64,000 bases of DNA from Promethearchaeati archaeon SRVP18_Atabeyarchaeia-1 (lineage in GTDB: Archaea; Asgardarchaeota; Atabeyarchaeia; Atabeyarchaeales; Atabeyarchaeaceae). The DNA lies in NCBI GenBank assembly GCA_037308085.1, contig CP147779.1, forward strand, positions 736,001 to 800,000, read 5' to 3'. The notes below the pieces were generated by a model, which saw nothing but the letters and a program-made list of their open reading frames with translations, did not search any database and was not told where the DNA came from. The position numbers and the translations under genes are program-made. The first letter of the stretch is position 1, and each line of letters starts with the position of its first letter. Positions 56,039-59,427 of this stretch are shown piece after piece.

Positions 56039-56240
56039 ATTACTGGTCTCCTATCACAGTGTTGATCCTTCTCATTTACTCTCAAAGACTAGCATGATTT
56101 GACTCCAGCTTTTTATAAACTTGTGTGTTTAGGCAATCGAGAAGGCAAGGCATTCGGTCGATTCCCGCAACACCAGAAAGAATCCACGCGCAGCTCCCAC
56201 TACCAGCAACCCACGGATGAAATGCCCCGAGAAACAAAGA

Positions 56241-56418
56241 GTGGCAACAATCCGTGGTCGGAACGGGAACGGGTGTTACCCCTCGCCTATGACCGGCGGC
56301 GCACCGCCAGCCGTCCAAGCTTCCCGAGAGATCTCTCATCTCAGTACAACTTGCACCGCGCGAGGACTTAACTCTCACGGCCGAGGTTGGCACCTGGTCG
56401 GCTCTCACGTGTTGCCAC
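56241..56418 (-). rRNA. rrf: Circularly permuted 5S rRNA gene: 3' segment 56373-56304, 4-nt linker, 5' segment 56299-56251, flanked by a BHB-forming leader and trailer
   Basis: Rejoined sequence CCGCCGGUCAUAGGCGAGGGGUAACACCCGUUCCCGUUCCGACCACGGA|AGUUAAGUCCUCGC...GUACUG...CGGGAA...GGCUGGCGG has the 5S hallmarks and is 119 nt; 9-bp leader/trailer stem. Confidence 0.85.
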
Positions 56419-56448
56419 CAAAGGTACGTGTATTATCAAAGAATAGTT

Positions 56449-56456
56449 CTTATAAA
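56449..56456 (-). promoter_or_regulatory. TATA box for the permuted 5S rRNA gene
   Basis: TTTATAAG on the minus strand, about 30 nt upstream of the leader stem. Confidence 0.55.
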
Positions 56457-56776
56457 CTTAGCGATATCGGGTTCTGTTAACTTAGCGTGGGACGGGGAAG
56501 AGTGTTAAGCACATTGGGGTGGTACCGTCTCTATTCAGTGGATCCCCTATGGGCACGTAAGTTATAGGGAGAGTGTAGTGGGGGGCTCGAAAAGGAGAAT
56601 GCACAGGACGCGATCTTCTTAACTTGCGCGCAGGGTATAGAAGGTTGATCCAGGCTAAGTCAACAGAACCTAACATCATCCAGACGTAAATCAATCTGGG
56701 AACCTCTCAATCATGGCAAGTTCACGGGGGTATAGAGAAATGCTTAACTATCAGATTAATCGCAATCTAACTAGCA

Positions 56777-59330: not shown

Positions 59331-59427
59331 GGGCGGGTAGTCTAGATTGGTATGATACAGACGGTGAAGTCCGTCGTCAATGTGGCTCGGGACCACGTGG
59401 TCGTGGGTTCAAATCCCACCTCGCCCA
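59331..59427 (+). tRNA. tRNA-Pro(CGG) with a 23-nt intron at 27/28 (59359-59381)
   Basis: GGGCGGG/CTCGCCC-A acceptor; BHB with TGAT/GTCA helix and AC|A, AT|G bulges; spliced anticodon arm CGTGG-CTCGGGA-CCACG; GTTCAAATC T loop. Confidence 0.9.

What the first reader, a model, noticed from the sequence alone, without database searches (positions are those of the whole stretch)
56241..56418. Circularly permuted 5S rRNA gene that would be rebuilt by BHB splicing
Seen: the minus-strand order is TATA, leader GTGGCAACA, 5S 3' segment (56373-56304, starting AGUUAAGUCCUCGC), linker UGCG, 5S 5' segment (56299-56251, ending CCGACCACGGA), trailer TGTTGCCAC. The natural 5S ends (helix I, CCGCCGGUC/GGCUGGCGG) are joined by the 4-nt loop. 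Leader and trailer form a 9-bp stem next to a BHB-type motif (CACG/CGTG 4-bp helix, GA|U and AG|A 3-nt bulges). Cutting after the second bulge base and ligating recreates the conserved helix III junction ...CACGGA-AGUUAAG..., giving 119 nt of 5S in a 123-nt circle. Established: permuted tRNA genes (Thermofilum) and permuted SRP RNA (Thermoproteus) mature through BHB circularisation by the splicing endonuclease and RtcB. Inference: I know of no genomically permuted 5S gene; the ribosome may hold a covalently circular 5S, or one reopened at the loop. Standard 5S models may miss it or call it partial.
Basis: partly seen in the sequence, partly recalled or inferred. Interest (0 to 1): 0.95.

Follow-up and report, generated by a model that had tools for sequence, protein, structure and literature searches.

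The report
Permuted, ring-forming Asgard 5S rRNA gene
This Asgard archaeon (Atabeyarchaeia-1) encodes its only 5S ribosomal RNA back half first, between tRNA-splicing-type cut signals and with an extra 30-nt intron at the joint, and environmental RNA contains the predicted cut-and-rejoined 123-nt form, which explains why standard tools find no 5S gene here.

Summary
On the minus strand, 56419-56240 holds a leader, the 5S 3' part, a UGCG cap on helix I, the 5S 5' part and a trailer. Rfam calls no 5S at gathering score. The complete 2,808,651-bp genome (Atabeyarchaeia-1, Asgard) has no colinear 5S and no DNA copy of the joined sequence. A covariance model of the permuted order scores 132.7 bits here. 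It scores at least 50 bits in 83 of 151 sampled Asgard genomes (19 of 27 families), but only 27-50 bits on ordinary 5S genes, including 151 Thermoproteota. Across 27 loci in 12 families, a 9-16 bp leader/trailer helix of unrelated sequence abuts a 3-nt bulge / 4-bp helix / 3-nt bulge motif. RNA contigs from four metatranscriptomes cover exactly 56251-56373. Three carry the joint 56373->56251 in 152-153-nt contigs, as expected for an unrolled 123-nt ring. Still unproven: that the closed ring, rather than a reopened form, sits in the ribosome. This scan has noted the same layout before on other Asgard DNA. I found no publication of it.

The parts
56449..56456 (-). TATA-like box TTTATAAG with conserved upstream GCTAAG; likely promoter of the stand-alone 5S precursor
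   Evidence: Read. The word GCTARGTTTATAAGA is conserved in G001 and G002. A TATA-like word lies 20-50 nt upstream of the leader in 22 of 27 loci, median 30 nt (no shuffle control, low weight).
56410..56419 (-). Leader strand of the outer helix h (GGUGGCAACA)
   Evidence: Pairs with 56249-56240 over 10 bp. Cognate leader/trailer helices are 9-16 bp in 27 loci, against a mean of 1.2 bp for cross-family pairs.
56406..56409 (-). Central 4-bp helix, leader-adjacent copy (CGUG, H1); pairs with CACG 56256-56253
   Evidence: Enforcing this pairing gives -83.4 kcal/mol, against an MFE of -83.7.
56403..56405 (-). 5' bulge of the first BHB (AGA); predicted cut between 56404 and 56403
   Evidence: BHB rule applied to the fold. 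This cut is inferred.
56374..56403 (-). Nested 30-nt intron with its own hairpin (GCCGA/UCGGC outer, AGGU/ACCU inner); its 3' end holds the second CGUG (56379-56376)
   Evidence: Absent from all RNA contigs, and the RNA joint skips it. A homologous 29-nt insert is present in G002 and absent in same-genus G001.
56373..56375 (-). 5' bulge of the 5S-adjacent BHB (AGA); cut between 56374 and 56373
   Evidence: RNA cover and the RNA joint begin exactly at 56373.
56304..56373 (-). 5S rRNA 3' part (3' strand of lower helix III, helix II 3' strand, helices V/IV, helix I 3' strand)
   Evidence: Aligned to Rfam model positions about 51-120. Consensus fold with compensatory pairs.
56300..56303 (-). UGCG (UNCG-type) tetraloop joining the natural 5S ends
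   Evidence: The cap is UNCG-type in 15 of 27 loci. RNA contigs run through it.
56251..56299 (-). 5S rRNA 5' part (helix I 5' strand, loop A, helix II 5' strand, helix III and loop C up to ...CACGGA)
   Evidence: Aligned to Rfam model positions 1-50. RNA cover ends exactly at 56251.
56250..56252 (-). 3' bulge (GAU); cut between 56251 and 56250. The preceding CACG (56256-56253) is the 3' strand of the central helix
56240..56249 (-). Trailer strand of the outer helix (UGUUGCCACU)
56230..56239 (-). T-rich tract (CTTTGTTTCT), a plausible archaeal terminator
   Evidence: Read. T-rich stretches follow most trailers. This is an inference.

Best explanation
This is the genome's single, functional 5S rRNA gene, circularly permuted. 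It is transcribed from its own promoter as a precursor of about 190 nt. The precursor carries, in order: a leader, a 30-nt intron, 5S positions about 51-120, a UGCG cap that joins the natural ends of helix I, 5S positions 1-50, and a trailer. [quoted passage not shown] In this lineage the most stable BHB uses the leader-adjacent CGUG. The first product would therefore be a 153-nt ring in which the ligation itself creates a second, canonical BHB: CACG/CGUG, bulges GAA and AGA, and a 5-bp intron stem. Cutting this second BHB removes the 30-nt intron and gives a 123-nt RNA with the 5S helix III junction ...CACGGA-AGUUAAG... restored. Shown here: the gene order, its conservation, the covarying BHB, the absence of any other 5S gene, and the joined intron-free 123-nt form in RNA. 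Inferred: the enzymes, the order of the two steps, and that the closed ring itself (about 55% in my estimate) is the form built into the ribosome.
For: Rfam calls no 5S at gathering score and finds only two swapped halves below threshold. The complete one-contig genome has no other 5S match and no DNA copy of the junction with up to 1 mismatch, and has a single match to the permuted model. The rejoined sequence folds into the 5S three-way junction at -55.6 kcal/mol and aligns end to end with colinear Asgard 5S genes over 118-121 positions. The consensus fold of 13 permuted genes recovers helices I-V, with compensatory changes in 27 of 35 pairs. Permuted model R1 scores 132.7 bits here and at least 50 bits in 83 of 151 Asgard genomes. 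It scores 27-49 bits on 78 ordinary 5S loci, and at most 50.4 bits in 151 Thermoproteota, where those hits are normal 5S at 91-99 Rfam bits. BHB across 27 loci in 12 families: outer helix 9-16 bp, 24 distinct sequences, central helix 4 bp in 21 loci and 3 bp in 6, both bulges 3 nt. Cognate leader/trailer pairs average 12.0 bp against 1.2 bp for non-cognate pairs. RNA: cover is bounded at 56251-56373 in 4 runs. The joint 56373->56251 (goes back 123) is in 3 runs. The contigs are 152-153 nt (123+30) and include both the cap loop and the junction. One contig identical to the window over 56251-56328 continues into the 15 nt of the junction partner. Enzymes encoded: two endonuclease paralogues and one RtcB. 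Conformer energies are -83.4 for the leader-adjacent BHB and -75.6 for the 5S-adjacent one. Precedent: Thermoproteus permuted SRP RNA (PMC4731332). A capped helix I works in E. coli ribosomes (PMC7283268).
Against: The RNA evidence consists of assembled contigs, not reads. It gives no ends, no strand and no relative abundance, and there was no DNA-run control for the joined form (table 5b not given). The contigs show that both the junction and the cap loop occur in RNA, but they cannot exclude a reopened linear majority. Low-level circular forms of ordinary 5S exist in Halobacterium and Sulfolobus and were read as possible degradation products (PMC12558985). The inner helix of the first BHB is only 1 bp plus a stacked hairpin, so the motif is relaxed rather than strict. 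In the 153-nt ring, the second BHB is 7 kcal/mol above the MFE because it competes with helix III. No 153-nt intermediate was seen.
Confidence: 0.82

Rival explanations
1. The same gene and the same splicing, but the ring is only an intermediate. It is reopened, at the UGCG cap or elsewhere, so the ribosome holds a linear 5S. This is the classical view for archaeal 16S and 23S circular precursors.
For: [quoted passage not shown] Contigs cannot show ends or abundance.
Against: The cap is a stable UNCG-type tetraloop in 15 of 27 lineages and varies freely otherwise, which does not look like a conserved processing site. The assembled contigs run through the cap and the junction without a break. 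Engineered 5S with a 4-nt connector functions in E. coli (PMC7283268). Some archaea keep 23S circular in ribosomes (PMC12918454).
Confidence: 0.3
2. One-step maturation. In the primary transcript, CACG pairs with the 5S-adjacent CGUG (56379-56376). The endonuclease cuts at 56374/56373 and 56251/56250 at once, and the leader plus insert leave as one 5' fragment. The 30 nt are then spacer, not an intron.
For: The final product is identical to that of the two-step route, and no 153-nt intermediate was seen. The inner pairs GUU/GAC flank this site, as in G001, which lacks the insert.
Against: This conformer is about 8 kcal/mol less stable than the leader-adjacent one (-75.6 against -83.4). It puts a 30-nt branch opposite the 3' bulge, breaking the continuous outer helix that all 22 insert-free loci have. 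The insert duplicates the CGUG-ARA motif and carries a 5-bp stem exactly where an intron's inner helix should be, in both G000 and G002.
Confidence: 0.3
3. The RNA is cut at the bulges but not ligated. The ribosome would then use a linear, permuted 5S with ends in helix III, as in brown-algal mitochondria, where the product itself is permuted.
For: Permuted linear 5S molecules exist in stramenopile mitochondria (PMC4267664).
Against: RNA contigs from 3 runs join 56251 to 56373, and a fourth shows the same junction as a 15-nt overhang. The break would lie inside the conserved 3' strand of helix III. RtcB is encoded.
Confidence: 0.04
4. Pseudogene or assembly artefact, with the working 5S encoded elsewhere or missed.
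For: None beyond the failure of the standard model.
Against: The genome is complete, curated and validated with long reads (PMC11291895), and has no other 5S signal. The layout is conserved with compensatory changes in dozens of independent assemblies and is present as processed RNA.
Confidence: 0.01

Closest known systems
Permuted, circularised SRP RNA of Thermoproteus tenax (Plagens et al. 2015, eLife, PMC4731332; abstract read)
   Same: An essential, universally conserved structural RNA whose gene is circularly permuted and escaped annotation. [quoted passage not shown] Ligation gives a circular, functional RNA.
   Different: The RNA here is a ribosomal RNA. The trait is spread over most of a phylum (19 of 27 sampled families) rather than confined to one genus. 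This locus adds a nested intron at the permutation junction. Cleavage and protein binding were shown experimentally for SRP RNA and have not been shown here.
Circularly permuted tRNA genes (Cyanidioschyzon merolae, Soma et al. 2007, as cited in PMC4267664; Thermofilum pendens, from my own knowledge)
   Same: The 3' half is encoded before the 5' half, the natural ends are joined by a short linker, and a BHB forms from leader and trailer with a circular intermediate.
   Different: Permuted tRNAs are reopened at the linker by RNase P and tRNase Z to give a linear tRNA. No comparable end-processing signal is evident at the 5S cap.
Circular pre-16S/pre-23S rRNAs of archaea, circular 23S in ribosomes, and permuted 23S of Pyrococcus/Thermococcus (PMC12918454, PMC7758197, bioRxiv 10.64898/2026.03.23.713588)
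   Same: A BHB in a processing stem, endonuclease cleavage and RtcB-type ligation of a ribosomal RNA. Evidence exists that a circular rRNA can stay in the ribosome.
   Different: Those genes are colinear and circularisation joins the natural ends. Here the natural ends are joined in the DNA and splicing repairs an internal break. The literature states explicitly that 5S is not processed this way (PMC12918454).
Permuted mitochondrial 5S rRNA of brown algae and other stramenopiles (Valach et al. 2014, PMC4267664)
   Same: A 5S gene whose domain order departs from the universal one and which needs a dedicated covariance model to be found.
   Different: In the organelles, helix I is replaced by a terminal hairpin and the final RNA is itself permuted and linear. 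There is no BHB, no ligation and no restoration of the standard sequence.
Engineered cp5S rRNA in E. coli (Huang et al. 2020, PMC7283268)
   Same: Native 5S ends are linked by a 4-nt connector and new ends are opened elsewhere. Ribosomes can be functional.
   Different: It is artificial, opened in loop C or D and grafted into 23S. It is not a free ring.

Membership tests
5S rRNA (Rfam RF00001) | Reaches the family's gathering score (38 bits) on the genomic sequence | tested here: not met
   There is no hit at gathering score. The two halves score 23.6 and 22.2 bits in swapped order. This is the expected result for a permuted gene, not evidence against homology.
5S rRNA (Rfam RF00001) | Rejoined sequence reaches the gathering score full length | not testable with these tools
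   cmscan accepts only the window and stored loci. Substitutes used: the MFE fold gives the 5S Y shape, and the rejoined sequence aligns end to end with colinear Asgard 5S genes.
5S rRNA (Rfam RF00001) | Helices I-V of a three-way junction supported by covariation, with conserved loop motifs (CAUAG in loop A, GUUAAG, GUACUG, GGGAA) | tested here: met
   RNAalifold on 13 permuted genes gives 35 pairs, 27 with compensatory changes, and the invariant motifs are present.
5S rRNA (Rfam RF00001) | Sole 5S source of the genome (functional necessity) | tested here: met
   No other match in the complete genome with Rfam or with R1, and no joined DNA copy.
Archaeal BHB splicing substrate | Two 3-nt bulges on opposite strands, separated by a 4-bp helix | tested here: met
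   Window: CGUG/CACG with bulges AGA and GAU. Across 27 loci, both bulges are 3 nt and the central helix is 4 bp in 21 loci and 3 bp in 6.
Archaeal BHB splicing substrate | Flanking helices h and h' (strict hBHBh') | tested here: inconclusive
   The outer helix is strong (10 bp here, 9-16 bp elsewhere). The inner helix is 0-3 bp in most loci, and 1 bp plus a stacked hairpin for the first BHB here. The predicted second BHB has 5 bp (intron stem) and 3 bp. The motif is therefore a relaxed BHB, which needs a broad-specificity enzyme.
Archaeal BHB splicing substrate | Cleavage by the splicing endonuclease and ligation by RtcB | not testable with these tools
   The genes are present: two endonuclease paralogues (209 and 241 aa, N and C domains, 32% identical) and one RtcB. 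The product ends seen in RNA match the BHB rule exactly.
Permuted RNA genes matured by circularisation (tRNA, SRP RNA) | 3' part encoded before the 5' part, with the natural ends joined by a short linker | tested here: met
Permuted RNA genes matured by circularisation (tRNA, SRP RNA) | RNA in which the new ends are joined | tested here: met
   The joint 56373->56251 is in 3 runs, with a 15-nt junction overhang in a fourth. Contigs of 123+30 nt hold both cap and junction. These are contig-level data only.
Permuted RNA genes matured by circularisation (tRNA, SRP RNA) | Covalently closed topology (RNase R resistance, divergent RT-PCR) and function of the ring | not testable with these tools

The most novel reading that the evidence does not exclude
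The ribosomes of most Asgard archaea, the closest known relatives of eukaryotes, contain a covalently closed circular 5S rRNA made by the tRNA-splicing machinery. In Atabeyarchaeia its maturation needs two ordered splicing events, and the substrate of the second exists only after the first ligation has joined the two ends.
Probability: 0.4. Interest if true: 0.92.

Novelty: new variant of a known kind. Interest (0 to 1): 0.86.

Why it matters
5S rRNA is universal, and its gene order was thought invariant outside a few organelles. Reviews and a 2026 study state that archaeal 5S, unlike 16S and 23S, is not matured through circularisation. Here the only 5S gene of a complete Asgard genome cannot give a 5S RNA without endonuclease cutting and ligation, and the same holds in most sampled Asgard families. 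This has three consequences. It makes the splicing endonuclease and RtcB essential for ribosome assembly in these organisms. It explains apparently missing 5S genes in Asgard genomes and gives a model (132.7 bits against 23.6) to annotate them. It also makes testable whether a ribosome can work with a ring-shaped 5S. The nested intron, present in two genera and absent in a same-genus relative, shows intron gain or loss at a site where splicing is already obligatory.

Tried and rejected
1) Scan of the named species collection with a pattern meant to require the permuted order. I reused the loci as a negative control.
I solved this by first obtaining handles.
3) Lack of RNA cover over the leader, insert and trailer is not evidence of absence. 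The data are contigs built from 31-mers, a 30-nt intron ring cannot be assembled at all, and rare precursors are dropped.
4) The summed contig depth falls from about 140 to about 14 along the molecule. It mixes several relatives, so I did not use it to judge ring against linear.
5) Borderline R1 hits at 45-50 bits in Thermoplasmata and Thermoproteota were checked and are normal 5S genes.
6) The TATA-word count has no shuffle control in AT-rich spacers, so I give it little weight.
7) I considered a tree of 5S sequences to ask whether the permutation arose once. I did not attempt it, because 120 nt cannot resolve phylum-level history.

Full report
WHAT IS THERE. Read on the minus strand, the stretch 56456-56230 contains the following parts in order:
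- a TATA-like box (TTTATAAG, 56456-56449);
- a leader, GGUGGCAACA (56419-56410);
- CGUG (56409-56406);
- AGA (56405-56403);
- a hairpin-forming stretch ending in a second CGUG-AGA (56379-56373);
- 70 nt that match the 3' part of 5S rRNA (56373-56304);
- UGCG (56303-56300);
- 49 nt that match the 5' part of 5S (56299-56251, ending CACGGA);
- U (56250);
- the trailer UGUUGCCACU (56249-56240);
- a T-rich tract.

STANDARD TOOLS MISS IT, AND THERE IS NO OTHER 5S. Rfam at gathering score finds only a tRNA in the whole window. In permissive mode it finds two adjacent RF00001 matches of 23.6 and 22.2 bits against a threshold of 38. The upstream match aligns well only to model positions about 51-120 and the downstream match only to 1-50. 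The window lies in a one-contig genome of 2,808,651 bp. In that genome these two half-matches are the only 5S signal. The joined sequence CCACGGAAGTTAAG does not occur as DNA even with one mismatch. The genome length equals that of the complete, long-read-validated genome 'Atabeyarchaeia-1' (Ca. Atabeyarchaeum deiterrae), an Asgard archaeon from wetland soil. For that genome, 92-95% of tRNA genes were reported to contain introns, often at non-canonical positions. The passages I retrieved list a 16S gene and tRNAs and say nothing about 5S (PMC11291895).

THE REJOINED SEQUENCE IS A 5S rRNA. Joining 56251 to 56373 gives 123 nt. Opened at the cap, it folds by itself into helix I, the II/III arm and the IV/V arm (-55.6 kcal/mol). 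It aligns end to end, over 118-121 positions and across the junction, with colinear 5S genes of other Asgard families at 53-63% identity. An alignment of 13 permuted genes from 9 families folds, in permuted order, into helix II closing a junction that holds the IV/V hairpin and a capped helix I, followed by the helix III hairpin. Of 35 pairs, 27 show compensatory changes.

IT IS A LINEAGE-WIDE STATE, NOT AN ACCIDENT. A covariance model of the permuted core (R1) scores 132.7 bits on this locus. In an even sample of 151 genomes of the phylum it scores at least 50 bits in 83 genomes from 19 of 27 families.
- Families f6, f10, f12 and f15, where Rfam finds ordinary colinear 5S genes at 49-85 bits, give only about 30-38 bits.
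- Controls: 78 ordinary 5S loci from bacteria and other archaea score 27-49 bits.
- In 151 Thermoproteota genomes the maximum is 50.4 bits, and those top hits are normal 5S genes with 91-99 Rfam bits.
- The only named records that scored high are Ca. Jordarchaeum (120.4 bits) and a Heimdallarchaeota MAG (91.7 bits). Neither gets an Rfam 5S call.
- By coordinates and contig length, family f7 is Jordarchaeia and f18 is Freyarchaeia, whose contig of 3,576,204 bp matches the complete genome of PMC11291895.

THE FLANKS ARE A CONSERVED, COVARYING BHB. In all 27 loci examined (12 families), an ungapped leader/trailer helix of 9-16 bp abuts the core. There are 24 distinct helix sequences, and they are unrelated between families. 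Cognate pairs average 12.0 contiguous base pairs. Leaders paired with trailers of other families average 1.2, and 0.3% of those reach 9. Next to the helix, every locus has a 4-nt central helix (4 bp in 21 loci, 3 bp plus a mismatch in 6) and a 3-nt A/G-rich bulge on each strand.

Two registers exist. CGUG/CACG with the cut at GGA|AG occurs in f1, f2, f5, f7, f8, f14, f18 and f20. CCGA/UCGG with the cut at GGAA|G occurs in f16, f17 and f19. Both restore the same ...CGGAAGYUAAG... of helix III. The inner helix is weak (0-3 bp), so the motif is a relaxed BHB. The genome encodes two endonuclease paralogues (209 and 241 aa, both with N- and C-terminal domains, 32% identical) and one RtcB. A heteromeric enzyme would fit the known broad specificity of such endonucleases. 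That link is inference from established knowledge.

RNA. Four metatranscriptomes from four studies hold part of the stretch: peat 2018 (two runs, perhaps one campaign), sediment 2021 and sediment 2025. Laid on 56180-56480, their contigs cover 56251-56373 and nothing else. Three runs carry a joint '56373 -> 56251, goes back 123'. The contigs concerned are 152-153 nt long, that is 123 + 30, which is what a 31-mer assembler returns for a 123-nt cycle. One contig covers 56251-56373 completely, cap loop included, and then 56251-56273 again. Another reads 56301-56373 followed by 56251-56328.

The fourth run has a contig with no difference from the window over 56251-56328. It continues, before an adapter, into 15 nt that are the reverse complement of AGTTAAGTCCTCGCG, the exact junction partner. 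So RNA of this allele, or one indistinguishable over 93 nt, contains the cap loop and the spliced junction and lacks the 30-nt insert. Variant contigs carry a compensatory A-U to G-C change (56339/56329), a G001-like helix I, and junctions of relatives.

The limits are these. These are contigs, so they show no ends, strand or abundance. No DNA-run control of the joined form was offered. Low-level circles of ordinary 5S have been reported in Halobacterium and Sulfolobus and were interpreted as possible degradation intermediates (PMC12558985). Here, however, the junction is not an optional by-product. Without it there is no 5S.

THE NESTED INTRON. G001 (same genus) has leader-CGUG-AAA-GUUAAG with no insert. 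This genome and G002 (the other genus of the family) have 30 and 29 extra nt between two CGUG-ARA copies. The two inserts have homologous shape: outer GCC(G)/(C)GGC, inner AGGU/ACCU and a tetraloop. Family f4 has inserts of 30-31 nt at the same place.

Folding the 180-nt precursor gives -83.7 kcal/mol for the MFE. Enforcing the leader-adjacent CGUG to pair with CACG gives -83.4. This makes a 14-bp continuous outer-plus-central helix, a 3-nt bulge on each strand, and the insert's hairpin exactly in the inner-helix position. Enforcing the 5S-adjacent CGUG gives -75.6.

Cutting the favoured motif and ligating would give a 153-nt ring. In that ring the new junction GGA|A creates a strict BHB: CACG, bulge GAA, the 5-bp intron stem, CGUG, bulge AGA, and 3 bp GUU/GAC. 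Cutting this BHB yields the 123-nt form seen in RNA. I therefore favour two ordered steps (about 60-65%) over a single cut using the 5S-adjacent motif. The intermediate has not been observed, and in the ring the second BHB competes with helix III (-56.4 against -63.6).

RING OR REOPENED. For a persistent ring:
- the cap is a UNCG-type tetraloop in 15 of 27 lineages and otherwise varies freely;
- the contigs are continuous through cap and junction;
- E. coli ribosomes tolerate 5S whose native ends are linked by a 4-nt connector (PMC7283268);
- some archaea keep 23S circular in ribosomes (PMC12918454).
Against: there is no measurement of topology or abundance. I put the ring as the ribosomal form at about 55%.

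COMPARISON AND NOVELTY. The mechanism is that of the permuted SRP RNA of Thermoproteus (PMC4731332) and of permuted tRNA genes. The RNA class, the phylum-wide spread and the nested intron are new relative to those. Permuted 5S genes of stramenopile mitochondria (PMC4267664) are a different phenomenon. Full-text searches for permuted or circular archaeal 5S found nothing, and a 2026 paper from the same wetland system still states that 5S is not processed through circularisation. Subscription journals are not covered by the library. Earlier notes of this scan describe the same layout on other Asgard genomes and the nested intron on this window. I used them as leads only and re-derived every point above.

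Noticed in passing
window 59331-59427 (+): A tRNA gene that Rfam aligns only with a 39-nt gap in the D/anticodon region, and for which ARAGORN cannot name an anticodon. It is probably a multi-intron tRNA of the kind reported for this genome.
   Followed up: no
window 56082-56408 (-), 56099-56371 (+), 56217-56480 (+): Open frames of 87-108 aa overlap the 5S gene. They are probably spurious and could be called as hypothetical proteins by gene finders that do not see the RNA gene.
   Followed up: no
L191 (G020:C158:18829-18985) and L193 (G137:C7:20114-20271): In family f9, permuted 5S genes carry further inserts at other sites: 31 nt in loop C of helix III (G020) and 32 nt in the helix I cap (G137). 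They may be additional small introns.
   Followed up: partly
G026, G073, G085, G005 (family f4); G110 (f25): Some genomes have two permuted 5S copies at distant loci. G110 has four identical copies on short contigs.
   Followed up: no
G010, G048, G131, G149 (family f9, genus g10): These nearly complete genomes score only 38-46 bits with the permuted model, and G010 had no Rfam 5S match at all. Their 5S genes remain unresolved and may be more divergent or more heavily interrupted.
   Followed up: no
27 loci: The permutation breakpoint differs by one nucleotide between lineages (GGA|AG against GGAA|G), with a matching shift of the central helix (CGUG/CACG against CCGA/UCGG). This may reflect drift of the BHB or more than one origin.
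   Followed up: partly
window 56329 and 56339: Environmental RNA contigs carry both A>G at 56329 and T>C at 56339 (plus-strand letters). On the RNA this is a compensatory A-U to G-C change in helix IV/V of a close relative.
   Followed up: partly
L013-L016, L023 (downstream of the 5S trailer): In families f2 and f5, an intron-containing tRNA gene starting GGGGTCGTGG or GGGGCCGTGG follows the permuted 5S within about 10-100 nt. This suggests a conserved 5S-tRNA neighbourhood that is absent in this window.
   Followed up: no
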